Of a stretch of 33,775 nt of DNA, positions 19,685 through 32,301 are shown one piece after another. The DNA is from a virus (lineage: Duplodnaviria; Heunggongvirae; Uroviricota; Caudoviricetes): positions 1-33,775 of the IMG/VR virus record IMGVR_UViG_2671180456_000007; one strand, written 5' to 3'. Within the stretch, counting starts at the first letter, position 1. Each line of letters opens with the position of its first letter. A program made the translations under genes and the position numbers. The notes beneath the pieces are model-generated. The model was not told where the DNA came from, made no database searches, and was given only the letters and a program-made list of their open reading frames with translations.

Positions 19685-19689
19685 ACACA

Positions 19690-20211
19690 TTATTCTTCGA
19701 ACAATTTTTCGATAGATTTTGTAGAATAGAACAAAGAACGCTCGTTGTTACCAACCAGCTGGATAAAGCCCAAACTTTTATAAAACGCCCTGGCTTTATC
19801 GTTCAACGCCTCAACGAAAAGCCCATGAATGCCTACCGCAAGAGATGCATTGTACACAACACGCATTGCGTGAGTTACAAGCATTGAGCCAAGCCCCTGA
19901 CCTTGAAGAGATTTGTCCAAAGCCAGTCTGCCTAAAGTGATACTTGGGACATTCCGATAAGGCACTTTCTTTTGCTGACTCTTTGAAGGTAAGGTTTCTT
20001 TCTCAAAGCAGCTGCCTGACAAAGTGTAATAACCTAATACCTTTGGTATTTCTTCTTTAGTGCAAAGCACATAAGCGCGAAGAATTTTTCCTTCATGCTG
20101 TCTTTTTAAGTGGTTGGTCAAAAATGCGTTTAGTGACTCTTCGCCGCAATCAAAACCGTTTAGATCATAATCGTTCTCTCCAGAGAAAATCTCGATCGTC
20201 GTATTGCTCAC
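19690..20211 (-). CDS. GNAT-family acetyltransferase toxin (TacT/AtaT/KacT-like, tRNA-acetylating type)
   Basis: 173-aa ORF; acetyl-CoA-binding motif region GRLALDKSLQGQGLG; immediately downstream of, and co-directional with, a DUF1778-like antitoxin gene. Confidence 0.8.
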   Translation of the reverse strand: MSNTTIEIFSGENDYDLNGFDCGEESLNAFLTNHLKRQHEGKILRAYVLCTKEEIPKVLGYYTLSGSCFEKETLPSKSQQKKVPYRNVPSITLGRLALDKSLQGQGLGSMLVTHAMRVVYNASLAVGIHGLFVEALNDKARAFYKSLGFIQLVGNNERSLFYSTKSIEKLFEE

Positions 20212-20218
20212 GAGTAAA

Positions 20219-20488
20219 TTACTCCATGCTTTTCAGACGATTGGCAGCTCGTTTCAGCTTGTCGTTCGGTGCTGGAGGATTGCTTATAGCATCCATAACC
20301 AGATTCCAGGACTCTTCACTTAGAACCAGTCTACGGTGTTGCTCTATCACCTTCACGGCACGTTCGGATGCACTGCTAACCATGAACTGGGTAATGCTCT
20401 GGTTAGACATTGCGGCAGCTTCCTCGATGATGCTTTTATCGTCATCGGTTAATCTCAAATCGATGCGCTGCTTTTTCAGTGCGGACAT
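20219..20488 (-). CDS. DUF1778-family antitoxin (TacA/AtaR/KacA-like, ribbon-helix-helix)
   Basis: 89-aa ORF MSALKKQRIDLRLTDDDKSIIEEAAAMSNQSITQFMVSSASERA...; RHH-like N-terminus; 7-nt gap to the toxin gene. Confidence 0.8.
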   Translation of the reverse strand: MSALKKQRIDLRLTDDDKSIIEEAAAMSNQSITQFMVSSASERAVKVIEQHRRLVLSEESWNLVMDAISNPPAPNDKLKRAANRLKSME

Positions 20489-20543
20489 GTGTACCCCCTG
20501 ATGGCCGGTGATGTAGGAAGGCCATCATTGCTCTCTATTTAAA

Positions 20544-20637
20544 CTGAGTTTTCGACTCAAAGGTTATTTAACTGGGCTATAGCCCATTGCGTATGTGTCA
20601 TCAAATTGTGTACGGCAATTTACCGTACTCGTAATAT
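20544..20637. promoter_or_regulatory. Cluster of short palindromes in the parA/toxin-antitoxin divergent region (GGGCTATAGCCC at 20573-20584; GTACGG-N7-CCGTAC at 20619-20637; TGAGT-N5-ACTCA at 20544-20558): candidate operators or centromere-like sites
   Basis: Perfect inverted repeats read directly in the 320-bp AT-rich spacer between the divergent antitoxin and parA genes. Confidence 0.35.
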
Positions 20638-20807
20638 AGAGATGATTGTCACTTTTTTCAACAGACAAATGAAAACAGTTACTAGCAATAGGCAATAACA
20701 ACCTACTAAATAACCTTTACACCGCAGCCGTAGGCATTTAGGCTATATCACATATAAGAAAACAAGTTGTTTCAGACGATAATTATATACGCAAAGGGAA
20801 CTCTCCA

Positions 20808-21476
20808 ATGACCAAGATCTTTGTGGTTGGCGGCACAAAGGGCGGGCCTGGCAAATCCACTGTTGCCCAGCAAATTGCCGTTTGCCTGAAAGTCAAAAAG
20901 AAGAAGAAGGTTTATATCACTGATATAGATATTCAGCGCACGACAACAAGCTGGTGTGAAGACCGTAGACAGAACGAAGACCTTGAGCTGATTCCTTTTG
21001 CATACGTTCAGGATGACATCATTAAGCACCTAAAATCGCTTCAGGGTAGAGCTGAGTTTGTAGTGGTAGATGCTGGTGGCTTTGACTCCGAAATTCAGCG
21101 ACAAGCGATGCTGATGGCCGACGTTATCATTATCCCGCTTCGTCCTAAGCGTCGTGATTTGAAATCTCTGCGTGACATCGATCCTATTATCGACAATGTT
21201 CGTAATGTAAACGATAAAGTGAAGGTCCGCGCGGTCATGAACCAGTGCCCGGCTTTGCCATCACAAGTGTCTCGCATTCTGGCGGCTAAAGAGATTGTTG
21301 AGACGTTTGGCATCGAGTCTGCGCCAGTCAATCTATATAACCGCAACGTCTACGATGATGCGGAAGAGTCTGGTCGTTCTATCTTTGAAATGACCGGTAG
21401 CGAGCGCGACAAAAAGGCGGAAGCCGAGTTTGAAGAATTTGTAGATTATCTGTTGAGTCTGGAGGAAGAAGAATAA
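20808..21476 (+). CDS. parA: ParA/Soj-family partition ATPase (small, type Ib-like)
   Basis: 222 aa; deviant Walker A motif GGTKGGPGKST near the N-terminus; followed by a small RHH-like protein gene overlapping by 1 nt. Confidence 0.85.
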   Translation: MTKIFVVGGTKGGPGKSTVAQQIAVCLKVKKKKKVYITDIDIQRTTTSWCEDRRQNEDLELIPFAYVQDDIIKHLKSLQGRAEFVVVDAGGFDSEIQRQAMLMADVIIIPLRPKRRDLKSLRDIDPIIDNVRNVNDKVKVRAVMNQCPALPSQVSRILAAKEIVETFGIESAPVNLYNRNVYDDAEESGRSIFEMTGSERDKKAEAEFEEFVDYLLSLEEEE

Positions 21477-21835
21477 TGTCCATGAAAATGGGTGACCTAG
21501 CAAAGCGCAAAGAGCCTGATGCACCGGCCAAGAACACAACTCCTTTGCGCCAACCAGTCAGACCACAGGGACGCCCGACTCGTGGCAAAGAGAAAATTAA
21601 AAGCCGCACAATGTCACTGGAGGACGAATACTTCGAACTGCTGGAGATGATGAAGTTCATCCCTCGCTTCGAGAAGTTCACTCGTTCTGACGTGATTCGT
21701 GCTGCTATTTTCCATCTGGCAGAGAAGTCACCGCAGGAAATCGAGGACATCGTGAAATTGAATGAGGCGATCACCGCTGCCGATGTCACGATGCGTACCG
21801 ATGAAATCAAACGAGAGTTGATGAAGAAAGGTTAA
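21476..21835 (+). CDS. Small ParG-like centromere-binding protein (basic disordered N-terminal tail plus ribbon-helix-helix-like C-terminus)
   Basis: 119 aa; Lys/Arg/Pro-rich N-terminal 45 aa then ...KSRTMSLEDEYFELLEMM...RSDVIRAAIFHLA; TAATG coupling to parA. Confidence 0.55.
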   Translation: MSMKMGDLAKRKEPDAPAKNTTPLRQPVRPQGRPTRGKEKIKSRTMSLEDEYFELLEMMKFIPRFEKFTRSDVIRAAIFHLAEKSPQEIEDIVKLNEAITAADVTMRTDEIKRELMKKG

Positions 21836-21838
21836 AAA

Positions 21839-21873
21839 TTATGCATTGGCGCAATGTACGCGCCAATGCATAA
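21839..21873. terminator. Bidirectional terminator hairpin between convergent genes (14-bp stem TTATGCATTGGCGC/GCGCCAATGCATAA, loop AATGTAC)
   Basis: Perfect 14-bp inverted repeat located between the parG-like stop (21835) and the GIY-YIG gene stop (21888). Confidence 0.6.
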
Positions 21874-21887
21874 CTACAGTGTCAGCT

Positions 21888-22655
21888 TTATGCCGCGCTA
21901 ACACTATGTTCAGTCCTAACCACCCCAACCTTCACAAAAGGGCTACCGTAGCTTGGTGGCTTCTTGATTAATTTGCCTACATACAGTTTTCTAATATGCT
22001 CATCGGCTATTCTGCCAACAAATTCATAACGTTTTGTGTCGGGGCCAAGAGCTATATCCCTTGTAAAGTACTGCTGAGAACCGGCTTTGACCCAGCATTC
22101 AATCTGATAAACTTCCATTATTAGCCCACCATATGTAGAGTAGGCATATTTGAGATTCTCGTCTCTTGGAACCTTTGCCCATACGCCACGCGTAGCTTCA
22201 TATAATGCCAGAGCGGACATTCCTGACTTGTAGGTGCTGTTTAGCAGGAAGGCAAGACCGGCGTGCTCAGGAGCAATTTCAGTTTCCTCTTGCAGCACTA
22301 AGTGATGGTAGGCGTCCAGTGATATTCTGCCCATCATGGAACCACTTCCTCGTACCTTATTCGTAAGCTCTCCGACCCCCATAAGGTCGATGCATGTCGC
22401 CTCAACAAGTTTGGCTGTGGTTTCATCCATACCATGACGAAGTATATCTATGCCTAATTTTTTATTAGCCAAAAGTTCTTTGATCCGCATGGATTTGGGA
22501 GAGTCATCGGGATACTTGATGTGATCGAGACAACGAGTCGATTTGCCTTTTCCTATGTAAAACGGTCTTTTCATCTTGTCTTCTGTATCATAGAGACAGT
22601 AAACATAGTATTTAGCCTTATCCAATGATCTCGCGTATACCGATAAATCGTCCAT
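21888..22655 (-). CDS. GIY-YIG-family nuclease with a ~150-aa C-terminal domain of unknown function (stand-alone, opposite strand)
   Basis: 255 aa; N-terminal motifs KYYVYCLYD ... PFYIGKGKSTRCLDH match the GIY ... YIG ... R ... H pattern of GIY-YIG nucleases; the C-terminal domain (…WAKVPRDENLKYAYSTYGGLIMEVYQIECWVKAG…) was not recognised. Confidence 0.7.
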   Translation of the reverse strand: MDDLSVYARSLDKAKYYVYCLYDTEDKMKRPFYIGKGKSTRCLDHIKYPDDSPKSMRIKELLANKKLGIDILRHGMDETTAKLVEATCIDLMGVGELTNKVRGSGSMMGRISLDAYHHLVLQEETEIAPEHAGLAFLLNSTYKSGMSALALYEATRGVWAKVPRDENLKYAYSTYGGLIMEVYQIECWVKAGSQQYFTRDIALGPDTKRYEFVGRIADEHIRKLYVGKLIKKPPSYGSPFVKVGVVRTEHSVSAA

Positions 22656-22766
22656 TATTGCATCTCTTTGCTACTGACTAATGCGTTCTATTTTACACAT
22701 AAGTTTTTAATCAATTTAACAGGCTCAAAGTGTAGAGCTTCTGGGCGTCTAAGACGACAAGTTATG

Positions 22767-22821
22767 CCTGCTTCTGTATATATAAATAATAAGTAACTTA
22801 TTAAATATATACGGAAGCAGG
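22767..22821. repeat. Nested near-perfect palindrome (17-bp arms CCTGCTTCTGTATATAT / ATATATACGGAAGCAGG around a palindromic 21-nt AT-rich core); candidate operator, origin or cruciform
   Basis: Arms at 22767-22783 and 22805-22821 with one mismatch; the core AATAAGTAACTTATT is itself palindromic; lies in a divergent intergenic region. Confidence 0.5.
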
Positions 22822-22937
22822 TCTTTTAAAAGACACCACCAGAACAACTCCCTTCCGTTTCCACTTCCAAAAACTGCCACCAGTCGCTATCATCCGCTCA
22901 TCGTGATAAGTAAGTAACTACCTACCAGGTGAGCCAC

Positions 22938-23678
22938 ATGAGCCAGATCTTTTTCGATACCATCGACAACGACCAGTACGACTTCATGACAGAGTGGAAT
23001 ACCGCTGTTATGGACAAGTGGGTCGCTGAAAACATTGGTTTGTCGCGCTGTAAAGACGAGGCTGAACTCTTCGAGACGAAGTGGTTTGATTACCGCGACA
23101 TGCATCCTCTCATGGCCACCTGTCTTTTTACGGAGGCATACAAACGTCAGTACTCAAATATCATGCTGACGCACGGTCGCGAACACTTTGAAACAGCTCC
23201 GTTCACCACCGGGTTAAAACGTCTGCCTTATCAGGAGTTGTCGACTGCCAACAAAACGTCGCTATGGAAAGCACGCCAGTTTGCGGATCGCTATTGCTGC
23301 TCATACGACTACTTTATCTCCACCGTTCTTTCCGCAGCTGCACGACGACTGTGGGACAAGCTGCCGCGTCCGCAGCATTTGTGGCAGCCAGAACTGATTG
23401 AGATATTCGAAGAGAAATTAGCCAGACGCGCAACAACCCGTCTGGATGACTCTCTGGTTAGCTTTAAGCATATGGGAGACATGCAGTTCAACCCGATTCA
23501 GGAAAGCTATTTTGAGTGGATTCTGGAGCGTTTGCGCACCATCCCCCGCAGCAAGCGCATACGCGCAATTTTCTCCGCTATCTGGCTAATGGAAATCGTT
23601 CCAGAGCGCCTTATTTCCGCCCACTTTCCAGAAGAACTGGAAGAAGCACGGCGGTTTATTGATCCCCTATCTAATTAA
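22938..23678 (+). CDS. Hypothetical protein, first gene of the replication module (possible helicase loader or accessory factor)
   Basis: ATG at 22938 with RBS AGGTGA upstream (the ORF-finder start at 22929 is a GTG); 247 aa, no recognisable motif; immediately upstream of the helicase gene. Confidence 0.6.
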   Translation: MSQIFFDTIDNDQYDFMTEWNTAVMDKWVAENIGLSRCKDEAELFETKWFDYRDMHPLMATCLFTEAYKRQYSNIMLTHGREHFETAPFTTGLKRLPYQELSTANKTSLWKARQFADRYCCSYDYFISTVLSAAARRLWDKLPRPQHLWQPELIEIFEEKLARRATTRLDDSLVSFKHMGDMQFNPIQESYFEWILERLRTIPRSKRIRAIFSAIWLMEIVPERLISAHFPEELEEARRFIDPLSN

Positions 23679-23721
23679 CTAATACTAGAAAACAATTTGT
23701 TTAAAAAACAAAGGAAAGCAC

Positions 23722-25062
23722 ATGACCGAACTTTGCCATACAGGACGCGGGCTGTCCGAAGAGTTTGATGAAGATTTTCAGAACAGATTGACGGCCTATT
23801 TTTGTCGTGATCACGAGTTTCTTACTCGTGCGGGAGATCTGGTTGTACCTAGCCAATTTGCCAATGCGGCCAATGCCATATTGGTTAATATGGTTTCGGG
23901 CTATTACCGTATGTACAAGAGCGCGCCCTCTTCATCTGCGATTCTGGATATGCTTAAGCGTGCGAAACGCGATAAGACTATCCGTGAGGAACTATTCGCC
24001 GATGTTGTTGCTGCGTTTAAGCGCATCCTTGCAGAAAAATTGTCTGATACCTCGTACATGGTTGACCAGGTATCAACCTTCGCAAAAAGCGTAGCGTTTG
24101 ATGATGCTCTGATTAAGGCTGCTGAACTGAAAGAGAAGGGCGACTTTCAGGGGGCGATGGCAATCATGGCCAAGGTTCAGCAGATTGGATCGAACGAAGC
24201 GACCGGAATCTATGACTACTACACCTCCGCAAGTGAGCGATTGAAAGCGCGTGAATATGAGGCTTCAGAGGAGTATGTGCCAAACAGCATTACAACTGGA
24301 CTCCCTCTGCTCGATAGGTTGCTGTACCAAAAAGGCTGGGCGAAGCGTGAAATGGTGCTCTTCATGGGGTTCGCTAAATCCGGTAAATCGACCGCAATGG
24401 GTGAGTTTTCCATAAACGCAACGCTTGCTGGCTACAATGTTCTGTATCTCTCGCTGGAGGTTCACACCACCATTTTATCCGACCGTTTTGATGCAAGATT
24501 GTCGGAGACAGAAATGTCCAAGCTGGTGGAACGGCGCGATGAGGTTCATCGTAAGTTGGCAGAGTTGGGAGCCACGAAGGGGATTGGTAGTTTGTGGGTT
24601 GTTGAGCGTCCGTCAGGAAGTATGTCACCGGCAGATCTGGATCGTATGCTTAACAGCATGAAAGCCAATGGCATGGTGCCTGACATGGTTGTTGTCGACT
24701 ATGCAGATTTGATGCGTGCCAGTTATGACCTTCGTGATGATCGCGCCAACATACGTAGTATCTATACCGACTTACGTGCTCTTTATGACAAACACAACGT
24801 TGCTGGTATCACGGCATCGCAGACAAACCGTGAAGGTGGCGCGTCAGAAGTTGCCACAATGATGCACGCTGCCGACAACATCGAAAAAGTACGTATTGCT
24901 GACCTGGTAATAACGATCAACAAAACAGAAGAAGAAGAAGCGAAAGGAGAGGCTCGTCTCTACTTTGCTGGTTCACGTAACCAGCAGGGAGGGATCAGCA
25001 TTCGCGTTAAACAAAACCTCGAACAAATGCGCTTCATTGAGCGAATCTTAGACGTTACCTAA
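23722..25062 (+). CDS. DnaB-like replicative DNA helicase
   Basis: 446 aa; Walker A GFAKSGKST, Walker B-like VVVDYADLM, and a RecA-fold C-terminal domain with ...GITASQTNREG...; RBS AAGGAAAG. Confidence 0.85.
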   Translation: MTELCHTGRGLSEEFDEDFQNRLTAYFCRDHEFLTRAGDLVVPSQFANAANAILVNMVSGYYRMYKSAPSSSAILDMLKRAKRDKTIREELFADVVAAFKRILAEKLSDTSYMVDQVSTFAKSVAFDDALIKAAELKEKGDFQGAMAIMAKVQQIGSNEATGIYDYYTSASERLKAREYEASEEYVPNSITTGLPLLDRLLYQKGWAKREMVLFMGFAKSGKSTAMGEFSINATLAGYNVLYLSLEVHTTILSDRFDARLSETEMSKLVERRDEVHRKLAELGATKGIGSLWVVERPSGSMSPADLDRMLNSMKANGMVPDMVVVDYADLMRASYDLRDDRANIRSIYTDLRALYDKHNVAGITASQTNREGGASEVATMMHAADNIEKVRIADLVITINKTEEEEAKGEARLYFAGSRNQQGGISIRVKQNLEQMRFIERILDVT

Positions 25063-25068
25063 AAAATA

Positions 25069-25091
25069 AGCGTGGAGAACACCTCCACGCT
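25069..25091 (+). other. Hairpin (9-bp stem AGCGTGGAG/CTCCACGCT, loop AACAC) between helicase and primase genes; possible attenuator or RNA processing/stability element
   Basis: Perfect inverted repeat 7 nt after the helicase stop; no clear T tract follows. Confidence 0.35.
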
Positions 25092-25143
25092 TGATTCATT
25101 GGTGAAACAACTTTTCTTTTGCCAAACCACAAAAGAAAAACAC

Positions 25144-26325
25144 ATGAGCCTTTATGTTATATCAACATTTAGGTTGGTCACAATATTGCCTGTTAAAAGT
25201 GGAATTATCGTGAGCGAGCTGAAAGAGCTAATTACCGAATTAGATTTTGAACAATGGTTGGATACTGAAGGTATCGTTTATCGACGTGGAGGCGTGAGTA
25301 CTCGCGGTCGTGAAGTGAATATCAAGGAGTGTCCGGTATGTGGCAGCTCCAACTGGAAGGTATATTTCAATCTGACCAGTGGCGTCGGTAAATGCTTCGC
25401 TGGTGATCATCCCGAAGAGATTCAGTTCAATAAGCTGGTCTTCCTCAAGCACTACAGCGGCAAATCACGACGACAGTTCGAGGAATATGTGCAGAACGCC
25501 CTTCTTTCCCAGGGGTGGGCACCAAAGAAAGAAGAGATAGTGCTTGCAAGCACAGTCGAGTTAGAGGGACCACTTGCACTCCCTCGTCATTACGAACTTC
25601 CTATAGATGGCCGTCTTCCAGACTATCTGGTTGAACGAAACATATCGCCTGAAATGGCAAAGTATTTTGACCTACGATACTGCGTCGAAGGCAAGCACGC
25701 TTATGTAGATCCGTATACAGATCAGGTTAAAGGACAGATATTCGATATGCGAATACTGATACCGGTTTACGATCTGGATGGGGTAATGAAGACATTTCAG
25801 GGGCGAGACATTACCGGTACAGCAGAACGCCGCTACCTCTTTCCTATGCAGCTTCCAGCTTCAGGTAAGTTTCTCTACAACGGCCATAATGCGGTCGGCA
25901 AACAGACTGTAGTTGTCTGTGAGGGGGCGTTCGATGTTATGGGAGTTAAACGAGCTATTTTTGATGAAGAAACATTACGTGATTACGTGGAACCGATAGG
26001 AACGTTCGGGATGCATCTATCTGGTAACACCACTCAGGATGCAGAAGATCAGTTGGGCGCGTTCCTGACGCTCAAGGCGCGTGGATTACGTAATGTGATC
26101 ATGATGTGGGATAGTGAAAAGCAAGCTATACGCAACACTATGGCCGCAGCCAGGCGACTGACCAGTATTGGTCTTAATGTCAAAGTAGCATGTTTGGGCG
26201 AGGAAGGACTCGACCCAGGCGATGCAACGCCAGAACAAATTATCAAAGCCTATTATCGGGCAAAACCGTATACCAAACAGTTGGAGTTGCAAAGCAAGGT
26301 TTTGGGCATTAAGGCGCTATCGTAA
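25144..26325 (+). CDS. DNA primase (T7 gp4-like zinc ribbon plus TOPRIM domain), encoded separately from the helicase
   Basis: Zinc-ribbon motif ECPVCGSSNWKVYFNLTSGVGKCFAGDH; TOPRIM-like acidic motifs (VVVCEGAFDVMGV, MMWDSEKQ). The start is uncertain: the ORF-finder start at 25072 lies inside the upstream hairpin; candidate starts are ATG 25144 or GTG 25210. Confidence 0.7.
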   Translation: MSLYVISTFRLVTILPVKSGIIVSELKELITELDFEQWLDTEGIVYRRGGVSTRGREVNIKECPVCGSSNWKVYFNLTSGVGKCFAGDHPEEIQFNKLVFLKHYSGKSRRQFEEYVQNALLSQGWAPKKEEIVLASTVELEGPLALPRHYELPIDGRLPDYLVERNISPEMAKYFDLRYCVEGKHAYVDPYTDQVKGQIFDMRILIPVYDLDGVMKTFQGRDITGTAERRYLFPMQLPASGKFLYNGHNAVGKQTVVVCEGAFDVMGVKRAIFDEETLRDYVEPIGTFGMHLSGNTTQDAEDQLGAFLTLKARGLRNVIMMWDSEKQAIRNTMAAARRLTSIGLNVKVACLGEEGLDPGDATPEQIIKAYYRAKPYTKQLELQSKVLGIKALS

Positions 26326-26400
26326 CAAGTGCCGCTAAAATAAGTAGATGATTACTTATCTTTCTGTAAGAATACTTTCATCTGTTAGCTAGGAGTTGGT

Positions 26401-27177
26401 ATGAAAGACGAAATTCAGAAATTAGCCTGCGACATCATTGATAAAACTGGTTTAGAAATCAGCGAGAGCAATCGACTAGACATCATTGAAAAAGCGGTAA
26501 AAACAGCAATGGATCATATCGCCACTCGTTTGGTTGAGATCCCGCTACCAGGGCTACCTTATCTGAAAGTTGAGTTACACGTATGGGGTGAACCTTCTTG
26601 TGCACGGCGTTCTGCATTAGTTGTTTTTATTAGCAAAGAAAACCCGCTCAGTCTTAAAGTGCAGGTTGGTGCATGGATGGATGGCAAAGTGATCTACACA
26701 AATACCGTTTTTTGTCTTTCAAACGACGAAACTATTGAAGCGGCCATTCAAGAAGCAGTTCTAGCAATGCGCAGCAGCGGTTTGATGAAGAATAACTACG
26801 AAGAGTACTTGCGTTCGATAAGTGGTGAAAAGACATTATCTCTGAAAGCAGATTTCGTTACCCCGAAAAACCTGTTGGAAGTCTTGCTTAATAAAGGGGC
26901 TAATGATGCCGTAAATGTAATCAGAGAGAGTGAGTATGCGTCTCTTTGCGACATGTGCAAAAGCCAGTTGGATCTGGTGCATATCGTTATTGATGCTGGG
27001 AAGGCATGTGATGGCGTAATGGCGGAATTTGCTTGGAAGGTGGTCAGGATTGCTAACGAATTACCGATGATAGAGCAAGAGGCCAAATCATACGCCACCA
27101 ATCATGTCACAGAGCTTCTTGTCCCCTATCGCTTAGAAAGCAATCAGCGCAAGATGGTTAGCTGGGGAAGTTGGTAA
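26401..27177 (+). CDS. Hypothetical protein (replication module, unknown function)
   Basis: 258-aa ORF with RBS GGAG upstream; no recognised motif. Confidence 0.6.
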   Translation: MKDEIQKLACDIIDKTGLEISESNRLDIIEKAVKTAMDHIATRLVEIPLPGLPYLKVELHVWGEPSCARRSALVVFISKENPLSLKVQVGAWMDGKVIYTNTVFCLSNDETIEAAIQEAVLAMRSSGLMKNNYEEYLRSISGEKTLSLKADFVTPKNLLEVLLNKGANDAVNVIRESEYASLCDMCKSQLDLVHIVIDAGKACDGVMAEFAWKVVRIANELPMIEQEAKSYATNHVTELLVPYRLESNQRKMVSWGSW

Positions 27178-27232
27178 TCTCTCCGCGCGTCGTTTTTTAC
27201 GCAAATAACGATAGGTAAGTACAAGATTATTT

Positions 27233-27715
27233 ATGGCGGTAGTTGTGAAAGCTGATTTGTCAAAAATCCCTTCTATTTCAGGAAATAACGGTTATTCACT
27301 TCGTTGTGAGGAAGTAAAGATAAACGGTGAGTCGGCATATTGCAGCTATTCCGTTTGCCAGCACACCATTCTTGCCTTCAAAGAAAACCGTCTTCCTCGA
27401 ACTTCTTTCCAGTCGTGCGCAACCGCTATTAAAGCAGGCAAATGCAAGGCGTTAAAAATGATGGTTGAAGAGATTCGTAAAGGAGAATCTCTGTATTTCG
27501 AAGATATGACCGCGCTCATTAAGGAGGTTGAAGAACGGAATAAACAAGCCAGAACTATAAAACGAAAACGTGACAGTGTAACGATTAATAGCATGGTTAA
27601 GAAGAGCACCACATCACAAACAGCGATCACTGACGTGTATGCGGCGTTGCTTGAAGAAACAACAAAAGAAACACATGAGCAAATCGATCAACATATGGAG
27701 GCAAAACAACAATGA
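27233..27715 (+). CDS. Hypothetical protein with N-terminal cysteine cluster (possible zinc-binding) and charged C-terminus
   Basis: 160 aa; cysteines in ...LRCEEVKINGESAYCSYSVCQH...QSCATAIKAGKCK...; ATGA-coupled to the ligase gene. Confidence 0.5.
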   Translation: MAVVVKADLSKIPSISGNNGYSLRCEEVKINGESAYCSYSVCQHTILAFKENRLPRTSFQSCATAIKAGKCKALKMMVEEIRKGESLYFEDMTALIKEVEERNKQARTIKRKRDSVTINSMVKKSTTSQTAITDVYAALLEETTKETHEQIDQHMEAKQQ

Positions 27716-29034
27716 AAAAGTTGATCGCACTTAAGCATAAGCTGGACGAAATGAAAGCTATGGGAACCAATGCAAAAAAAGAGGCATTGGCCAACATGGA
27801 TGACTTCGAGCAAAGCATGGTTTCATTGATGCTCAACCCTTTCATCCGTTTTGGGGTAAAGAAATACAAAGTGGCAGAGCCGCTTAGTGAGTCCGTCCCA
27901 AGTGACGAAAAAGCCATTGATATACTGAATAAGCTGGCCTCTCGCGAGCTGACGGGGAACGCAGCAATAGCAGCTGTTGAGTCTATCGTGGCGTCAATGT
28001 GCGCCGATGGGCAGGACGTGTTCCGTCGTTTCCTCTTAAAAGACCCGAAAGCAGGTGTTGGGATTAGCCTATGCAACAAGGTTTTTGAAAATCCCATTCC
28101 GAAATTCGAGGTGCAGCTGGCGTCACCGTATAAAGAAAAAGGCGACAAATACCCCTTCAAGCCAAATCCTAAAGCCAAATGGCCGATGATTGGCAGCCTT
28201 AAGCTCGATGGTTTGCGAGTAATTTGTGAGGTTATTGTTGACGAGGAAGAGGTTAACTTCCTTTCTCGTACTGGTAATCCAATCACGTCTCTCGATCACC
28301 TAAAGCCAGCAATGCTCGAATTAGGCAAACTTTCAGGCCACAAACACATCTTCTTCGATGGTGAAGGAACAGCCGGTTCATTTAACCAGTCCGTATCTGC
28401 ATTGCGCAAAAAGAACGTGCAGGCAATTGGCGCTATTTATCATGTTTTCGACTTCTTCCTACCGGAATGGCGGGCACAGGCTAAATCCAAAGAGTATGCA
28501 AAGACAGGTATGAAGCTGAAAGAGCGCCTGGCTATGCTGGTGGCGTTGTTTAAAAACGATCGCAGTGAAGGCTACGCACAAGACATTCACCTGCATCCGT
28601 TCTATATCATCCATAGCCACGAAGACTTCATCGAACGCTTCATGAAACGCCTGGACGATAACGAAGAAGGGGAGATGGGCAAAGATCCGAACTCTGTTTA
28701 CGAGTTTAAACGTACCCGCAGCTGGTGGAAGTTAAAAGACGAAGATTCAGAAGATGGTGAAATTATCGACTTTGAGCCTGGCGACCCGGACTCTGGTTTT
28801 GCCAACACGCTTGGAAAAATTGTTATTCGCCTTGAAAACGGTGTGATTGTTCGTGCGAGCGGCATTAAGCATAAATATCTGGACGAGATCTGGAACAACA
28901 AAGAGAAGTACCGTGGTCGTATTGTCGAGGTTCATTGTCACGAGAAAACGCCGGATGGCAGCTTACGCCACCCACGACTGAAATGGCCGCGTTGCTTACG
29001 CGATACCGAAGATCGAATCGGAGATAAAGAATGA
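27712..29034 (+). CDS. ATP-dependent DNA ligase with N-terminal extension
   Basis: 440 aa; adenylation motif I KLDGLR (SLKLDGLRVICEV); OB-fold-like C-terminal region ending ...RHPRLKWPRCLRDTED; RBS GGAGG. Confidence 0.85.
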   Translation: MKKLIALKHKLDEMKAMGTNAKKEALANMDDFEQSMVSLMLNPFIRFGVKKYKVAEPLSESVPSDEKAIDILNKLASRELTGNAAIAAVESIVASMCADGQDVFRRFLLKDPKAGVGISLCNKVFENPIPKFEVQLASPYKEKGDKYPFKPNPKAKWPMIGSLKLDGLRVICEVIVDEEEVNFLSRTGNPITSLDHLKPAMLELGKLSGHKHIFFDGEGTAGSFNQSVSALRKKNVQAIGAIYHVFDFFLPEWRAQAKSKEYAKTGMKLKERLAMLVALFKNDRSEGYAQDIHLHPFYIIHSHEDFIERFMKRLDDNEEGEMGKDPNSVYEFKRTRSWWKLKDEDSEDGEIIDFEPGDPDSGFANTLGKIVIRLENGVIVRASGIKHKYLDEIWNNKEKYRGRIVEVHCHEKTPDGSLRHPRLKWPRCLRDTEDRIGDKE

Positions 29035-29210
29035 TGATCGGCTGGATGATTGCATTTTTAGCAGTTGGTTTTTTCATCGGTATTGTGGTGATGTCCAGTT
29101 GCATTAATGACTACATTAAAAACGGTGTTATAGAAAGACGAGGTCGCATTTATCGCATTGTAGAAATAACCAACACCGTGAAGGAGATTAAGGATGATCG
29201 TATTAAGTAA
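29031..29210 (+). CDS. Small single-pass membrane protein (59 aa; below the ORF-track size cutoff), paralogue 1
   Basis: ATG overlaps the ligase stop (ATGA); MMIGWMIAFLAVGFFIGIVVMSS... has a TM helix then the basic tail RRGRIYRIVEITNTVKE. Confidence 0.4.
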   Translation: MMIGWMIAFLAVGFFIGIVVMSSCINDYIKNGVIERRGRIYRIVEITNTVKEIKDDRIK

Positions 29211-29409
29211 AAGGGAGAAAGAAACGCTTCATGAAATCAGTAAGTGGCCGGAGTTCCCTGAGTACTGGAAGCCTAAAACGCGAGCTAAGTTAGAGCGTTT
29301 AGGGTTGGTTGCAAACGTTTCTGAAACGTGGTGCTCGGCCAACTACCAGTTAACTGATAAAGGGAAAGTATTGCTACAGCAATTAGTAGAATCAGGAGTG
29401 TTAAAATGA
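29194..29409 (+). CDS. Hypothetical small protein (71 aa)
   Basis: RBS AAGGAG 9 nt upstream; overlaps both neighbouring small genes. Confidence 0.5.
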   Translation: MIVLSKREKETLHEISKWPEFPEYWKPKTRAKLERLGLVANVSETWCSANYQLTDKGKVLLQQLVESGVLK

Positions 29410-29558
29410 TTCCATACATCTCGTTAGCTTTTATGGGTGGCTTCCTTATCGGCTTCGGCATCTGTCGTGATTTAATTAAGCAGGAACTTAAAACCAAAAC
29501 ACTGTGCATCGGAAAGCGTGTGTATCGGGTAGTTCATGAAACAAAGGTGAAAAAATGA
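29406..29558 (+). CDS. Small single-pass membrane protein (50 aa), paralogue 2
   Basis: MIPYISLAFMGGFLIGFGICRD... TM helix then GKRVYRVVHETKVKK, similar in layout and C-terminal motif to the 29031 gene; ATGA-coupled to the next gene. Confidence 0.4.
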   Translation: MIPYISLAFMGGFLIGFGICRDLIKQELKTKTLCIGKRVYRVVHETKVKK

Positions 29559-29845
29559 GCAATTTAACTTCTTGGGAATGGTGGTTGGCCACCTATTTCT
29601 TAGCGGCCGGAGTAGCATTCGCCTTTTACGTAGGTCAGTTAGTCGTAAAACTGTTGCTGATTAAATTTGCTAGTCATAAACGTATCGATGATGGTCTGTG
29701 GCGTCTTGGCACCCTGGTGGAAACTCGCTACGGGCAACTTAAGGAGAACGAAACCATTACTATCCAAGCGAAACGATTCACTGCCACCATTACAAGAACA
29801 CCTAGTCGTAGAGTGGCCTTGATCAAAAAAGTCACAACCGAATAA
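29555..29845 (+). CDS. Small membrane protein (96 aa) with N-terminal TM helix
   Basis: MSNLTSWEWWLATYFLAAGVAFAFYVGQLVV... hydrophobic helix; last gene of the translationally coupled run. Confidence 0.55.
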   Translation: MSNLTSWEWWLATYFLAAGVAFAFYVGQLVVKLLLIKFASHKRIDDGLWRLGTLVETRYGQLKENETITIQAKRFTATITRTPSRRVALIKKVTTE

Positions 29846-29862
29846 AAACATATCGATAAGTA

Positions 29863-29884
29863 TTTACTTACTTATCTTTTGTGT
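29863..29884 (+). other. AT-rich hairpin GATAAGTA-N6-TACTTATC followed by TTTTG; possible terminator or regulatory palindrome of the TAAGTA family
   Basis: 8-bp inverted repeat 18 nt after the stop of the 29555 gene. Confidence 0.35.
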
Positions 29885-30236
29885 ATAAGATGACTTTGTT
29901 TTCGTTGAGACGCGACTGTTTGAACTTAAATACAAGTGCAAACGAAGAAGTCTATCTGGCAGTAGCCTAATAAGCCAAACACCAGCGAGGTCAGTTTCCA
30001 GCCTCGTTACCGAAATGGGACACACTGAGCGAGTGTGATTGCAGAACGCAGGAGGGAACATGAATGTTCCCTCCGATGAAGTAACAGAATGGGCCGGTTG
30101 GTATATTTTCAACTCCATATGACTCCCGGATTCTTAGCCACTGACCGCCCATCCTGTTACGTCATTTTGTTCAATTATGTCGTTTATACTGGGTTAAAAA
30201 GCGGCGACGTAGCCCGGCTGGTATGGTTAGCCAGTA

Positions 30237-30358
30237 CACAACGTTGAGGCCATTACATTTTTATCAATTCTAAGGTTCTATTCACAGAGATACCGGCGAG
30301 CGTTGATATGTAACATGTTGGGCAAACATTCAATCGGAGTAGTGGCCTCAACGTTGTG
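30237..30358 (+). repeat. Long hairpin element A (about 20-bp terminal stem CACAACGTTGAGGCCATTAC / GTAGTGGCCTCAACGTTGTG, about 80-nt interior)
   Basis: The two arms are exact reverse complements apart from one position; termini match those of elements B, C and D. Confidence 0.5.
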
Positions 30359-30624
30359 AAGACAGGATTGTTGTGTAGGTTTAACCACTGTTGCCATTGG
30401 TGCCTGTTTTCACAACAAATGATTCCATACATCACATTGTATAAATTACAAAGTAGGTGCTGTCCTCAGAAACATCATCTACTTAAAGATTTTGCCTTCT
30501 ACTATTGAGCGAAGTCGAAAGCGTCTGGCACTAACGAAAAGTGCAAGTAGCGGTGCGTTTCCTGGCAGAAACTAAACCGTCGCGATTGGCACTGTTGAGT
30601 AATAAATACTGGCAGTGCTGAATT

Positions 30625-30699
30625 GATGGTGTAGCTCAGCGGTAGAGCAGTTGGCTGTTAACCAACTGGTCGGTGGTTCGAATCCACCCACCATCGCCA
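30625..30699 (+). tRNA. tRNA-Asn (anticodon GTT)
   Basis: Manual fold: acceptor GATGGTG/CACCATC, D-stem GCTC/GAGC, anticodon stem GTTGG/CCAAC with loop CTGTTAA, T-arm GGTGG-TTCGAAT-CCACC, discriminator G plus encoded CCA. Confidence 0.8.
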
Positions 30700-30704
30700 A
30701 TTTA

Positions 30705-30791
30705 GGGGAGTTAGTCCGTAGGGGCAGCGGGGTAGACTGTAAATCTACTGTCATTGCGACTCGGGTGGTTCGACTCCATCACTCCCCACCA
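30705..30791 (+). tRNA. tRNA-Tyr (anticodon GTA), class II with long variable arm
   Basis: Acceptor GGGGAGT/ACTCCCC, anticodon stem GTAGA/TCTAC with loop CTGTAAA, variable stem-loop, T-arm GGTGG-TTCGACT-CCATC, encoded CCA; the D-arm region is non-canonical (4-nt linker). Confidence 0.7.
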
Positions 30792-30795
30792 AATT

Positions 30796-30871
30796 GCCGG
30801 TTTAGCTCAGTTGGTAGAGCGTCTGCCTTGTAAGCAGGATGTCAGCGGTTCGATCCCGTTAACCGGCACCA
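30796..30871 (+). tRNA. tRNA-Thr (anticodon TGT)
   Basis: Acceptor GCCGGTT/AACCGGC, D-arm GCTC-AGTTGGTA-GAGC, anticodon stem TCTGC/GCAGG with loop CTTGTAA, T-arm AGCGG-TTCGATC-CCGTT, encoded CCA. Confidence 0.8.
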
Positions 30872-30872
30872 A

Positions 30873-30962
30873 CACAACAGGTAAGAGCATTGGGCGAATC
30901 GGCGATACTGACCCACAAGCCCGTAAATCGATAGAGTCAGACCAGTGCTCTTACCGTTGTGA
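30873..30962 (+). repeat. Long hairpin element B (terminal stem CACAACAGGTAAGAGCATTGG / CCAGTGCTCTTACCGTTGTG), directly abutting the tRNA-Thr 3' end
   Basis: About 20-bp inverted repeat with compensatory changes relative to elements A, C and D; begins 2 nt after the tRNA-Thr CCA. Confidence 0.5.
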
Positions 30963-31013
30963 GGAAGTGCAGCTCTTTGAAGCAACCAGAAGATAAGCAT
31001 CTGGCTTCACAAC

Positions 31014-31092
31014 ACAACGATAAGATCATTACGGTTAATCGTCGTTCATGTGCACAATGACTGGTCGAAAGGTAGTGATCTTACCGTTGTGA
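31014..31092 (+). repeat. Long hairpin element C (terminal stem CACAACGATAAGATCATTAC / GTAGTGATCTTACCGTTGTG)
   Basis: Inverted repeat with the same CACAACG ... CGTTGTG termini as elements A and B. Confidence 0.5.
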
Positions 31093-31191
31093 TGAATGCA
31101 CAGGCTGATGTGCCGCAACTACAGTAGTGCGCGCTTTGCGGGGGTTGCTACAACCCTGTGTCGGAGTTCAGCACCGACCATCACAATAGCT

Positions 31192-31278
31192 GGAGAGTAG
31201 GGAGCATGGTGCTCAAGCGGTCTTGAAAACCGTCCCATTGCGCAAGCGATGATGGTTCGATTCCATTACTCTCCGCCA
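31192..31278 (+). tRNA. tRNA-Ser (anticodon TGA), class II with long variable arm
   Basis: Acceptor GGAGAGT/ACTCTCC, D-stem GAGC/GCTC, anticodon stem GCGGT/ACCGT with loop CTTGAAA, variable arm ATTGC-GCAA-GCGAT, T-arm GATGG-TTCGATT-CCATT, discriminator G plus CCA. Confidence 0.8.
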
Positions 31279-31280
31279 GA

Positions 31281-31358
31281 CACAGCGTTGAGCGGTTTGG
31301 CCTTTTAATCACCCAGATTAAGACTCCGCTAACATAAACCAGACCGCTCAACGCTGTG
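31281..31358 (+). repeat. Long hairpin element D (terminal stem CACAGCGTTGAGCGGTTTGG / CCAGACCGCTCAACGCTGTG), directly abutting the tRNA-Ser 3' end
   Basis: 20-bp inverted repeat with one mismatch; termini CACAGCG ... CGCTGTG are a covarying variant of the A-C termini. Confidence 0.5.
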
Positions 31359-31432
31359 ATAGACAATTACGGCAGACGTTCTTAACCATAGCTTGCTAAC
31401 ATCCTAGCAACACTTTTTTCAGCGCAAAATTC

Positions 31433-31456
31433 AAAGGGGCTTCGGCCCCTTTTTTG
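31433..31456 (+). terminator. Rho-independent terminator closing the tRNA cluster (stem AAAGGGGC/GCCCCTTT, loop TTCG, T6 tract)
   Basis: AAAGGGGCTTCGGCCCCTTTTTTG; a second weaker hairpin with a T tract lies at 31393-31419 (TTGCTA-ACATCC-TAGCAA-CAC-TTTTTT). Confidence 0.75.
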
Positions 31457-31498
31457 CAACTGAAAGAGTCAAGTCTACGAACTTTGTAGGAAGAAATA

Positions 31499-31849
31499 AT
31501 GACCAGCAAAGATAACACACCACTAAAAGTCACCCCTGAACACATTGAACAACTCATTCAAAGTGAACATTATTTCACTGCATATGATGCCAGCCACGGG
31601 GATAACTTCATCTCTGTTTACAATTCAAAAACAGATATCGACAAAGGTCATGAGTCGTTAAAACTCTTAACGTTCTGCGTTATGGTTCTCAAAAATGGAT
31701 ATACCGTAACGGGAAAATCTGCGTGCGTAAGACCAGAAATCTTCAACTTTGATGTTGGTCGCGAGTACGCTCGAAAAGATGCTATCGATCAAATCTGGCC
31801 CCTGGAAGGCTATCTCCTGAAGCAAAAGTGGCATGAGGCAAAGCAATGA
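31499..31849 (+). CDS. Gp49-like conserved phage protein (function unknown)
   Basis: 116 aa; the motif ...GYTVTGKSACVRPEIFNFDVGREYARKDAIDQIWPLEGYLLKQK matches, from memory, a widespread family of small phage proteins (GxSACVxPxNFDxxxGRxxA...LEGYLL); RBS AGGAAG. Confidence 0.6.
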   Translation: MTSKDNTPLKVTPEHIEQLIQSEHYFTAYDASHGDNFISVYNSKTDIDKGHESLKLLTFCVMVLKNGYTVTGKSACVRPEIFNFDVGREYARKDAIDQIWPLEGYLLKQKWHEAKQ

Positions 31850-32091
31850 CGATCACTATCTACGGACGAGATAACTGCTCATACTGCAAACGTGCAGTCG
31901 AGCTGGCGAAGCAACTAAAGGGACATGGCTACGGTGATTATGAGTACATCGACATCACCACTGCCGGTATCGACAAGGAAAAACTAAGTGAAATTGTTGG
32001 TAAACCGGTAGAGACTATCCCCCAGGTGCTGATCGATGGCCAGCCGATTGGCGGATACACAGAACTGGCTGCATACGTCAGCACCCTCTGA
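31846..32091 (+). CDS. Glutaredoxin (NrdC/NrdH-like thiol-disulfide oxidoreductase)
   Basis: 81 aa; CxxC active site CSYC near the N-terminus and a glutaredoxin-like C-terminus ...IPQVLIDGQPIGGYTEL; ATGA-coupled to the upstream gene. Confidence 0.75.
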   Translation: MTITIYGRDNCSYCKRAVELAKQLKGHGYGDYEYIDITTAGIDKEKLSEIVGKPVETIPQVLIDGQPIGGYTELAAYVSTL

Positions 32092-32096
32092 TTTTA

Positions 32097-32121
32097 ACGG
32101 CTCACAGGAGCCGTTTTTATT
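32097..32121 (+). terminator. Rho-independent terminator after the glutaredoxin gene (stem ACGGCTC/GAGCCGT, loop ACAG, T tract)
   Basis: ACGGCTCACAGGAGCCGTTTTTATT, 6 nt after the stop codon. Confidence 0.75.
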
Positions 32122-32170
32122 CCCACCAAACTCACTCCCATTTCCCTTAAAATTCAAAAAACAACGTCAA

Positions 32171-32203
32171 AATGATTCCATACCTACTATGTATGGAATC
32201 ATT
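32171..32203. promoter_or_regulatory. Inverted repeat AATGATTCCATAC-N7-GTATGGAATCATT about 100 bp upstream of the integrase gene; candidate operator or recombination site
   Basis: 13-bp arms are exact reverse complements; the same sequence occurs as single copies at 29404-29420 and 30418-30434. Confidence 0.45.
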
Positions 32204-32301
32204 AGTAAAAATGAGTTACTTTTACTCTTGATCCTATAAGAATCTATGCCTAATATACTGTTTACTTATACAGTACATCGGCGTAACTCGGTGATTGTCA
32301 T

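What the first reader, a model, noticed from the sequence alone, without database searches (positions are those of the whole stretch)
22938..29034. Replication module with separately encoded DnaB-like helicase and zinc-ribbon/TOPRIM primase, a T4-style ligase, and three unknown proteins
The helicase (Walker A GFAKSGKST) precedes a primase whose zinc ribbon (CPVCGSS...C) is T7 gp4-like; a 9-bp hairpin lies between them. The ligase carries motif I KLDGLR after a ~160-aa N-terminal extension, similar to the T4 ligase layout. Unknown proteins of 247, 258 and 160 aa, the last one cysteine-rich, are embedded in the operon and may be novel replisome or anti-host factors. This module is mosaic relative to the lambda-like tail genes.
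Basis: partly seen in the sequence, partly recalled or inferred. Interest (0 to 1): 0.45.

Follow-up and report, generated by a model that had tools for sequence, protein, structure and literature searches.

The report
Phage-plasmid helicase-primase-ligase replication operon
This stretch is the already-annotated helicase, primase and DNA-ligase operon of a common SSU5-type phage-plasmid of E. coli; it is ordinary, except that two of its three unnamed proteins prove to be conserved partners of the helicase and the ligase in distantly related phages.

Summary
Six same-strand genes lie at 22938-29034: a 246-aa unknown, a DnaB/T4-gp41-like helicase, a zinc-ribbon/TOPRIM primase, a 258-aa unknown, a 160-aa unknown and a T4-type ATP-dependent ligase.

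The DNA is 99.7% identical to E. coli plasmids, 97% to phage Cyrano and 81% to Salmonella phage SSU5. 454 plasmid records carry the module, so as a module it is already known.

- The primase does not start at 25072, which lies inside the hairpin. It starts at GTG 25210 or ATG 25144.
- Its zinc motif is CX2C-X17-C-X4-H, not the T7 gp4 spacing.
- Its solved-structure matches are DnaG and T4 gp61.
- The hairpin is real, 10-11 bp, and kept in nine lineages.

New here:
- p246-helicase-primase-p160-ligase keeps its order in Pseudomonas and Stenotrophomonas phages and in 25 distant viral contigs. p246 is therefore a candidate helicase loader. It is not homologous to T4 gp59.
- p160 has four invariant cysteines and is a candidate ligase partner.
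- p258 is confined to the SSU5 group and evolves 10-30 times faster than its neighbours, so it is probably an accessory gene.

No function could be assigned to any of the three by sequence or fold.

The parts
22767..22821 (+). 55-nt near-perfect palindrome with an AT-rich centre, followed by TCTTTT. It is terminator-like and marks the left boundary of the operon.
   Evidence: Inverted repeats I1/I3. Folds at -30.2 kcal/mol, z = -7.7. Conserved in Cyrano and SSU5 although the upstream gene differs. Its role as terminator or insulator is inferred.
22822..22937 (+). Conserved upstream region of the operon: TCCCTTCCGTTTCCACTTCCAAAAA, CCAGTCGCTAT, GATAAGTAAGTAACTACC, and the Shine-Dalgarno sequence AGGTGA.
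   Evidence: Conserved blocks in the three-way alignment. No sigma-70 consensus match. A second, inverted copy of the motif lies at 29859-29875.
22938..23678 (+). p246: 246-aa all-alpha protein (PHROG 2500), a conserved upstream partner of the helicase and a candidate helicase loader or primosome assembly factor.
   Evidence: PHROG 2500 at 3.7e-113, function unknown. AlphaFold model pLDDT 75.6, 13 helices. No significant fold match. Homologous to hairong_041 (probability 99.2%) and to a BUCTxx99 225-aa protein (97.3%). Found upstream of the helicase in 17 of 17 distant contigs with enough upstream DNA. dN/dS 0.01-0.06.
23722..25062 (+). DnaB-family replicative helicase, closest to T4 gp41; 446 aa. 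Walker A GFAKSGKST at 216-224, Walker B VVVDYADL at 323-330.
   Evidence: Pfam DnaB_C at 3.6e-13, 49.9 bits against a cutoff of 27. PHROG 19 at 5.5e-88. T4 gp41 structures 8due/8dtp at 5.5e-12, against E. coli DnaB at 2.4e-3. Motifs located.
25068..25092 (+). Hairpin 1, immediately after the helicase stop codon and preceded by an A-run.
   Evidence: -17.5 kcal/mol, z = -8.0. Retained in nine lineages with different stem tops and loops. Scores as a terminator only when read on the minus strand.
25112..25139 (+). Hairpin 2 (TTTTCTTTTG / CAAAAGAAAA). Its 3' arm lies within a stretch that is invariant across lineages and continues into the leader ORF.
   Evidence: Inverted repeat I9. z = -9.5. The core CTTTTG...CAAAAG and the following AAAAACACATGAGCCTYTATGGTA are invariant in nine lineages.
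25144..25209 (+). 22-codon leader ORF (MSLYVISTFRLVTILPVKSGII), in frame with the primase in this window.
   Evidence: A peptide of the form MSLYGIQ..RLIKILP.K is conserved. It is in frame with the primase in the window, pTB212, Enterobacter and Typhi plasmids. In SSU5 and Klebsiella it is a separate ORF whose stop overlaps or abuts the primase ATG.
25210..26325 (+). DnaG/T4-gp61-type primase, 371 aa from GTG 25210. Zinc motif C41-X2-C44-X17-C62-X4-H67; TOPRIM motifs EGAFD (238), DSE (301), DPGD (335).
   Evidence: PHROG 47 at 2e-65. Pfam DNAG_N 25.4 bits and Toprim_2 21.9 bits, both just under their cutoffs. TIGR01391 dnaG at 1.8e-9. PDB 5guj at 6.8e-6 and T4 gp61 at 1.7e-3. Zinc ligands conserved.
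26401..27177 (+). p258: 258-aa protein (PHROG 4248) confined to the SSU5 group and fast-evolving; probably an accessory gene.
27233..27715 (+). p160: 160-aa protein (PHROG 5055, related to PHROG 4558). It has an N-terminal domain of about 95 aa with four invariant Cys, a basic linker and an acidic conserved C-terminal motif. Its stop codon overlaps the ligase start (ATGA).
   Evidence: 209 representative homologues. Invariant N19, C25, Y39, C42, C62, C71, E80. Lies directly upstream of the ligase in hairong, in BUCTxx99 and in 24 of 24 distant contigs with room. Charge layout. No Pfam, PDB or PADLOC match.
27712..29034 (+). ATP-dependent DNA ligase with the T4 gp30 layout: an N-terminal DNA-binding domain, a nucleotidyltransferase domain (motif I K164) and an OB domain.
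   Evidence: Pfam DNA_ligase_A_M at 8.8e-13. PHROG 114 at 5.6e-126. PDB 6rau at 2e-26, T4 ligase 6dt1 at 7e-25, T4 ligase N-terminal domain 5wfy at 2.6e-6. Motifs KLDGLR 164, FDGE 214-217 (located DGE at 216), EGEMGK 319, WWKLK 338, LRHPR 418.

Best explanation
The region is the primosome-plus-ligase operon of an SSU5-type phage-plasmid.

Shown:
- It encodes a gp41-like DnaB-family hexameric helicase, a DnaG/gp61-type primase with a zinc ribbon and TOPRIM domain, and a T4-type ATP-dependent ligase with all the nucleotidyltransferase motifs.
- Relatives carry the rest of a T4-like replication and recombination set elsewhere: gp32-like SSB, UvsY, a UvsX/RecA-like recombinase, SbcCD, RNase H, and Pol III alpha and epsilon. 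They also carry a separate RepA plasmid replicon.

Inferred:
- The operon serves phage (lytic, probably recombination-primed) DNA replication rather than plasmid maintenance. The helicase unwinds the fork, the primase makes lagging-strand primers, and the ligase seals Okazaki fragments.
- p246 always sits just upstream of the helicase gene and is under strong purifying selection. It is most likely the factor that loads or assembles the helicase. It would be a functional analogue of T4 gp59, not a homologue.
- p160 is a four-cysteine, presumably zinc-binding, protein with a basic linker and an acidic tail. It is translationally coupled to the ligase and most likely acts with the ligase or in lagging-strand maturation.
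- p258 occupies a variable slot and is probably an accessory or host-interaction gene, not a core replisome part.
- Expression appears insulated on the left by a strong palindromic terminator.
- Primase output appears to be set separately by a conserved hairpin after the helicase gene and by a conserved short leader ORF coupled or fused to the primase start.
For: - Identity of the element.
- Enzyme assignments.
- T4-like companion genes and RepA elsewhere in Cyrano. IncFIB or rep_cluster_488 typing of relatives.
- Expression: in the Cyrano lysogen the genes reported as expressed include CYRAN_29, 30, 40 and 43, which flank the module. CYRAN_31-36, the module itself, are not listed (PMC9928086).
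- Deep synteny p246-helicase-primase-p160-ligase: Pseudomonas phage hairong and Stenotrophomonas phage BUCTxx99 and 25 IMG/VR contigs.
- Purifying selection on p246 and p160, fast evolution of p258.
- Four invariant Cys in p160.
- Conserved hairpin and leader ORF.
Against: - No biochemical or genetic data exist for p246, p160 or p258.
- Gene adjacency shows linkage, not mechanism.
- Hairpin 1 lacks a U-tract on the + strand, so its role as an attenuator is uncertain.
- Silence of the module in lysogeny is read from a list of expressed genes, not from the raw data.
Confidence: 0.75

Rival explanations
1. The module works in the plasmid (lysogenic) state. RepA opens the plasmid origin and the element's own helicase, primase and ligase replace host DnaB, DnaG and LigA, giving autonomy across hosts.
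For: The element is kept as a plasmid at about 5.5 copies per cell (PMC9928086). The module lies next to the ParA partition genes. 454 plasmid records carry it.
Against: The same gene order occurs in Pseudomonas Nickievirus and Stenotrophomonas phages, whose regions show PhoH, CobT/CobS-like genes and Pol III alpha but no annotated partition or Rep genes nearby. The module genes are not among those reported as expressed in the Cyrano lysogen. The companion genes are T4-like recombination and replication genes.
Confidence: 0.12
2. p246 is an origin-binding replication initiator (like lambda O) rather than a helicase loader, and the conserved palindrome or upstream motifs are its origin.
For: The gene sits first in the operon, next to a conserved 55-nt AT-centred palindrome and conserved non-coding blocks. 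A second inverted copy of the upstream motif lies at the other end of the operon.
Against: There are no iterons or tandem repeats in or near the gene. No DNA-binding fold was recognised. The protein is acidic. The palindrome followed by TCTTTT looks like an ordinary terminator.
Confidence: 0.15
3. The unknown proteins are anti-host or anti-defence factors that merely ride in an early operon.
For: p258 evolves 10-30 times faster than its neighbours, has a hypervariable centre, and lies in a slot where SSU5 and pJN2-26 carry extra reverse-strand genes. This is a pattern common for host-interaction genes.
Against: p246 and p160 show the opposite pattern: very low dN/dS and fixed positions next to the helicase and the ligase across phages of unrelated hosts. 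None of the three matches PADLOC models. No anti-defence library was available to test.
Confidence: 0.25

Closest known systems
Replication region of Salmonella phage SSU5 (SSU5_038-044) and E. coli phage-plasmid Cyrano/pLF82 (CYRAN_31-36)
   Same: Same genes in the same order. 81% (SSU5) and 97% (Cyrano) nucleotide identity. The 147-nt helicase-primase spacer is the same length.
   Different: SSU5 has an extra reverse-strand gene (SSU5_041) between the primase and the p258 homologue. In SSU5 the leader ORF is separate from the primase. The gene upstream of the operon differs: a GIY-YIG gene here, CYRAN_30 in Cyrano, a DUF2971 gene in SSU5.
Phage T4 primosome and ligase (gp41 helicase, gp61 primase, gp59 loader, gp30 ligase)
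   Same: Helicase and primase are separate genes. T4 gp41 is the best solved-structure match of the helicase, and gp61 is among the matches of the primase. The ligase shares T4 ligase's three-domain layout, including the N-terminal DNA-binding domain. Relatives also carry gp32-, UvsY- and UvsX-like genes.
   Different: There is no gp59 homologue; p246 fails the test. The polymerase in relatives is Pol III alpha with epsilon, not a family-B gp43. Identities to the T4 proteins are low.
Phage T7 gp4 primase-helicase
   Same: An N-terminal zinc-binding element, a TOPRIM primase and a RecA-fold hexameric helicase of the same superfamily (weak PHROG 239 matches).
   Different: T7 fuses both activities in one protein and uses CX2C-X15-CX2C (from established knowledge of T7 gp4). 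Here there are two genes, and the motif is CX2C-X17-C-X4-H. No T7 gp4 structure was among the PDB matches.
Replication regions of Pseudomonas Nickievirus phages (hairong_041-052) and Stenotrophomonas phage BUCTxx99
   Same: The order p246-like, helicase, primase, p160-like, ligase, followed by CobT/CobS-like genes and Pol III alpha.
   Different: Only 19-35% protein identity for the unknowns. There are extra small ORFs, including an Hfq-like one in hairong. No p258 homologue.

Membership tests
SSU5-type phage-plasmid (SSU5 supergroup) | Nucleotide similarity and shared gene order with SSU5, Cyrano and pHCM2-like plasmids | tested here: met
   99.7% to NZ_CP062914.1, 97% to Cyrano and 81% to SSU5 over the 6.1 kb, with the same gene order.
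DnaB-family replicative helicase | RecA-fold C-terminal domain with Walker A and Walker B motifs; Pfam DnaB_C above its gathering score | tested here: met
   DnaB_C 49.9 bits against a cutoff of 27. GFAKSGKST at 216, VVVDYADL at 323. T4 gp41 at 5.5e-12 over residues 55-410.
DnaB-family replicative helicase | Hexameric ring with 5'-3' unwinding activity | not testable with these tools
   Needs biochemistry or a multimer model.
DnaG/TOPRIM primase | N-terminal zinc-binding motif with four ligands | tested here: met
   C41, C44 and C62 are invariant. The fourth ligand is H67 here and Cys in distant relatives.
DnaG/TOPRIM primase | Pfam catalytic core (DNAG_N) and Toprim domain at gathering score | tested here: inconclusive
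   DNAG_N 25.4 bits against 26, Toprim_2 21.9 against 22.1, both just below threshold. Supported by PHROG 47 at 2e-65, TIGR01391 at 1.8e-9 and 5guj at 6.8e-6. The acidic motifs EGAFD, DSE and DPGD are present.
T7 gp4-type zinc ribbon | CX2C-X15-CX2C spacing, fused to the helicase in one polypeptide | tested here: not met
   The spacing is CX2C-X17-C-X4-H and the helicase is a separate gene. The T7 spacing is taken from established knowledge.
ATP-dependent DNA ligase, T4 gp30 layout | Nucleotidyltransferase motifs I, III, IV and V and OB-domain motif VI | tested here: met
   KLDGLR 164, FDGE 214-217 (located DGE at 216), EGEMGK 319, WWKLK 338, LRHPR 418. DNA_ligase_A_M 48.8 bits against 26.2.
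ATP-dependent DNA ligase, T4 gp30 layout | N-terminal alpha-helical DNA-binding domain homologous to that of T4 ligase | tested here: met
   5wfy (a 136-residue DNA ligase chain whose alignment corresponds to the T4 ligase N-terminal region) aligns to residues 11-125 at 2.6e-6. 6dt1 matches at 7e-25.
T4 gp59 helicase loader (considered for p246) | Sequence membership in Pfam T4_Gp59_N and T4_Gp59_C | tested here: not met
   No Pfam hit for p246 or its homologues, whereas gp59 itself scores 1e-53. hhalign of the family against gp59 gives probability 0.17%.
T4 gp59 helicase loader (considered for p246) | Two-domain all-alpha gp59 fold | tested here: inconclusive
Zinc-binding protein (considered for p160) | Four conserved metal ligands | tested here: met
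   C25, C42, C62 and C71 are invariant in 23 sequences down to 22% identity. Metal binding itself is not testable here.

The most novel reading that the evidence does not exclude
p246 and p160 are two undescribed core replisome accessory families of a large group of roughly 100-118 kb tailed phages and phage-plasmids that combine a T4-like primosome with a Pol III alpha polymerase. p246 would be a helicase loader unrelated in sequence to gp59, DnaC or lambda P. p160 would be a four-cysteine zinc protein that tethers or stimulates the T4-type ligase at nicks. In addition, a conserved hairpin and leader ORF would set the helicase:primase ratio.
Probability: 0.3. Interest if true: 0.5.

Novelty: already known. 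Interest (0 to 1): 0.22.

Why it matters
SSU5-type phage-plasmids are widespread in clinical Enterobacteriaceae and can carry resistance genes, so knowing which genes drive their lytic replication and which drive plasmid maintenance has practical value. The module itself is routine and already annotated.

The useful addition is that two 'hypothetical proteins' are fixed partners of the helicase and the ligase across phages of unrelated hosts. That marks them as good targets for finding a new helicase-loading factor and a ligase cofactor. The third unknown looks like a fast-evolving accessory gene instead.

Tried and rejected
- Pfam, NCBIfam, PADLOC and PDB sequence searches gave nothing for the three unknowns.
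- PHROGs places them only in families of unknown function.
- The afdb50 library was unavailable.
- The gp59 hypothesis for p246 was tested by hhalign and rejected as homology.
- The idea that p160 is the phage SSB was dropped because relatives encode a gp32-like SSB elsewhere.
- Homology between p258 and its positional analogue hairong_050 was rejected.
- Distant p160 relatives show no fusions to known domains.
- There are no iterons or tandem repeats, no Rfam family in the leader and no sigma-70-type promoter upstream of the operon.
- Literature searches found no functional study of these genes.
- A broad alignment was too diverse for the search for related loci. The first scan returned only near-identical loci.

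Full report
**What is there.** Between 22938 and 29034 the + strand carries six closely spaced ORFs:
- p246, 22938-23678
- a helicase, 23722-25062
- a primase, in an ORF open from 25072
- p258, 26401-27177
- p160, 27233-27715
- a ligase, 27712-29034

- GFAKSGKST at helicase residues 216-224
- CPVCGSS...C in the primase
- KLDGLR at ligase residues 164-169

The hairpin after the helicase stop codon is real and stronger than described. It has 10 Watson-Crick pairs plus a G-U at 25068-25092, folds at -17.5 kcal/mol and has z = -8.0 against shuffles.

**Where it comes from.** The 6.1 kb is 99.7% identical to an E. coli plasmid, 97% identical to phage Cyrano (the pLF82 phage-plasmid) and 81% identical to Salmonella phage SSU5. 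It matches 454 plasmid records from Escherichia, Enterobacter, Salmonella, Yersinia, Citrobacter and Klebsiella. Public annotations list the same genes as DNA helicase, DNA primase, DNA ligase and hypothetical proteins. The SSU5 supergroup is the largest described set of phage-plasmids (PMC7969092). The module is therefore already known and routinely annotated.

**The three enzymes.**
- Helicase: it passes Pfam DnaB_C (49.9 bits against a cutoff of 27) and PHROG 19. Among solved structures it is closest to T4 gp41 (5.5e-12), well ahead of E. coli DnaB (2.4e-3).
- Primase: it matches PHROG 47 (2e-65), TIGR01391 dnaG (1.8e-9), B. subtilis DnaG (6.8e-6) and T4 gp61 (1.7e-3). Its Pfam DNAG_N and Toprim_2 scores fall a fraction of a bit below their cutoffs.
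- Primase zinc motif: it is C41-X2-C44-X17-C62-X4-H67. Distant relatives have Cys in the fourth place. This is a zinc ribbon, but not with the T7 gp4 spacing. Separate helicase and primase genes are the T4 arrangement.
- Ligase: it has motifs I, III, IV, V and VI. It matches T4 ligase 6dt1 at 7e-25, and the isolated T4 ligase N-terminal DNA-binding domain 5wfy matches residues 11-125. The 'T4-style layout' claim holds.

**Primase start and leader.** Annotators use GTG 25210. One relative is annotated from the upstream ATG that corresponds to 25144.

The helicase-primase spacer is 147 nt in the window, Cyrano, SSU5 and pJN2-26, and is strongly structured (z = -5.1). I compared it across nine lineages:
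- Hairpin 1 is always present and always preceded by an A-run, but its stem tops and loops differ (GGAG/CUCC, GGGGC/GCCCC, GGAGA/UCUCC). The structure, rather than the sequence, is what is kept.
- A block of about 32 nt, CACAAAAG(A)AAAAACACATGAGCCTYTATGGTA, is invariant.
- That block opens a short ORF encoding MSLYGIQ..RLIKILP.K. The ORF is in frame with the primase in the window, pTB212, Enterobacter and Typhi plasmids. In SSU5 and Klebsiella it ends at a stop codon that overlaps or abuts the primase ATG.

I infer that this leader sets primase output separately from helicase output. On the + strand the hairpin lacks a U-tract, so it may act as a weak attenuator or a stability element. No Rfam family matches.

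**p246.**
- Distribution: close homologues occur only in enterobacterial SSU5-like elements (33 clusters).
- gp59 test: hhalign of the family against gp59 gives probability 0.17%. p246 is not a gp59 homologue.
- Remote homologues: profile comparison shows clear homology to hairong_041 of a Pseudomonas Nickievirus phage (probability 99.2%) and to a 225-aa protein of Stenotrophomonas phage BUCTxx99 (97.3%). Both lie just upstream of the helicase.

**p160.**
- Family size: a profile search of 1.84 billion representatives finds 209 relatives. The remote ones fall in PHROG 4558, function unknown.
- Conserved residues: across 23 sequences down to 22% identity, N19, C25, Y39, C42, C62, C71 and E80 are invariant. 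The four cysteines suggest a zinc site.
- Layout: the domain is followed by a basic, variable linker (net +7) and a conserved acidic amphipathic motif (net -5).
- Link to the ligase: its stop codon overlaps the ligase ATG here. The homologue abuts or overlaps the ligase gene in hairong and BUCTxx99.

**Synteny test.** I used two sets of remote p160 relatives to fetch 25 distant IMG/VR contigs, then scored all their ORFs with profiles of the window's proteins.
- All 22 loci that reach upstream of the p160 homologue have a primase in the same order and on the same strand. Twenty-one of them also have the helicase; in the other (L095) the DNA starts within about 150 nt of the primase.
- A ligase follows the p160 homologue in 24 of 24 loci with room for it.
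- A p246 homologue precedes the helicase in 17 of 17 loci with at least about 840 nt upstream. One locus with 733 nt upstream is ambiguous.
- p258 has no counterpart in any of these loci.

**p258.**
- It has only nine clusters in 5.8 billion proteins and occurs in the SSU5 group only.
- It is 90/42/35% identical to Cyrano/SSU5/pJN2-26, where its neighbours are 99-100/74-94/68-93%.
- Its dN is 10-30 times that of its neighbours. Its centre (residues 95-150) also has raised dS, which points to recombination between alleles.
- In SSU5 and pJN2-26 the same slot holds an extra reverse-strand gene.
- This pattern fits an accessory or host-interaction gene better than a core replisome part.

**How the module probably works.** Cyrano's annotation shows that the element also encodes Pol III alpha and epsilon, a gp32-like SSB, UvsY, a RecA/UvsX-like recombinase, SbcCD, RuvC, RNase H and a polynucleotide kinase. 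It also has a separate RepA plasmid initiator, and relatives are typed IncFIB or rep_cluster_488. In the Cyrano lysogen, the genes reported as expressed include those flanking this module (CYRAN_29, 30, 40, 43) but not CYRAN_31-36 (PMC9928086).

From this I infer the following:
- The operon is silent in the plasmid state and serves lytic, probably recombination-primed, replication in the T4 manner.
- The conserved 55-nt palindrome at 22767-22821 (-30.2 kcal/mol, followed by TCTTTT) acts as a terminator insulating the operon from the expressed genes upstream.
- p246 is the best candidate for the missing helicase loader, and p160 for a ligase or lagging-strand accessory.

These last assignments rest on gene linkage and selection only.

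**Verdict.** The G+C shift is real, but the whole layout is the standard SSU5-type genome. The module is already known, so interest is low. The modest new point is the deep conservation of the p246-helicase and p160-ligase pairs.

Noticed in passing
window 21888-22655 (- strand): A 255-aa GIY-YIG protein (Pfam LEM-3_GIY-YIG 5.5e-7) matches the PADLOC anti-phage defence model PD-T4-3 at 6.5e-23. It lies between the partition genes and the replication operon. Cyrano (CYRAN_30) and SSU5 (a DUF2971 gene) carry different genes in that slot, so it looks like a variable defence or cargo hotspot.
   Followed up: partly
window 29859-29960 (- strand): A second, inverted copy of the conserved p246-upstream region lies just past the right end of the operon: TTCGTTTGCACTT...CAGTCGC...GATAAGTAAGTAAATAC. 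The motif matches at 15 of 17 positions, with 0.04 expected by chance. It could be a shared regulator site or a promoter pointing back into the operon.
   Followed up: partly
window 22767-22821: A 55-nt near-perfect palindrome with an AT-rich centre (-30.2 kcal/mol, z = -7.7). It is conserved in Cyrano and SSU5 even though the gene upstream differs in identity and orientation.
   Followed up: partly
window 25127-25160 and relatives L002, L113-L119: An invariant block of about 32 nt (CACAAAAGAAAAACACATGAGCCTTTATG...) sits in an otherwise 67-75% identical spacer across nine lineages. It is more conserved than the flanking coding DNA, which suggests an RNA- or protein-binding signal at the start of the leader ORF.
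   Followed up: partly
window 20808-21476 and 21476-21835 (+ strand): A ParA/MipZ-type partition ATPase (PHROG 164 at 4.2e-51) is followed by a 119-aa partner (PHROG 5111). Cyrano labels that partner a RelE/ParE toxin, but by position it is more likely the centromere-binding partner.
   Followed up: no
window 19690-20211 (- strand) and the adjacent ORF: A GNAT-family acetyltransferase toxin (KacT-like in Cyrano's annotation) with a DUF1778 antitoxin in the closest plasmid. It is a toxin-antitoxin pair beside the partition genes.
   Followed up: no
window 30625-31278: A cluster of four tRNA genes (Asn-GTT, Tyr-GTA, Thr-TGT, Ser-TGA) downstream of the operon. Cyrano has Asn, Thr and Ser, while the SSU5 and pJN2-26 regions retrieved here list only a tRNA-Asn, so the tRNA set varies.
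   Followed up: no
L005:2509-2775 (Pseudomonas phage hairong): The small ORF between the p246 homologue and the helicase in this distant phage matches Pfam Hfq (1.5e-7, above the gathering score). The window has no ORF at that place.
   Followed up: no
window 1-14000 versus 14000-33775: G+C falls from 0.53-0.62 in the tail-gene part to 0.41-0.52 in the rest of the window.
   Followed up: no
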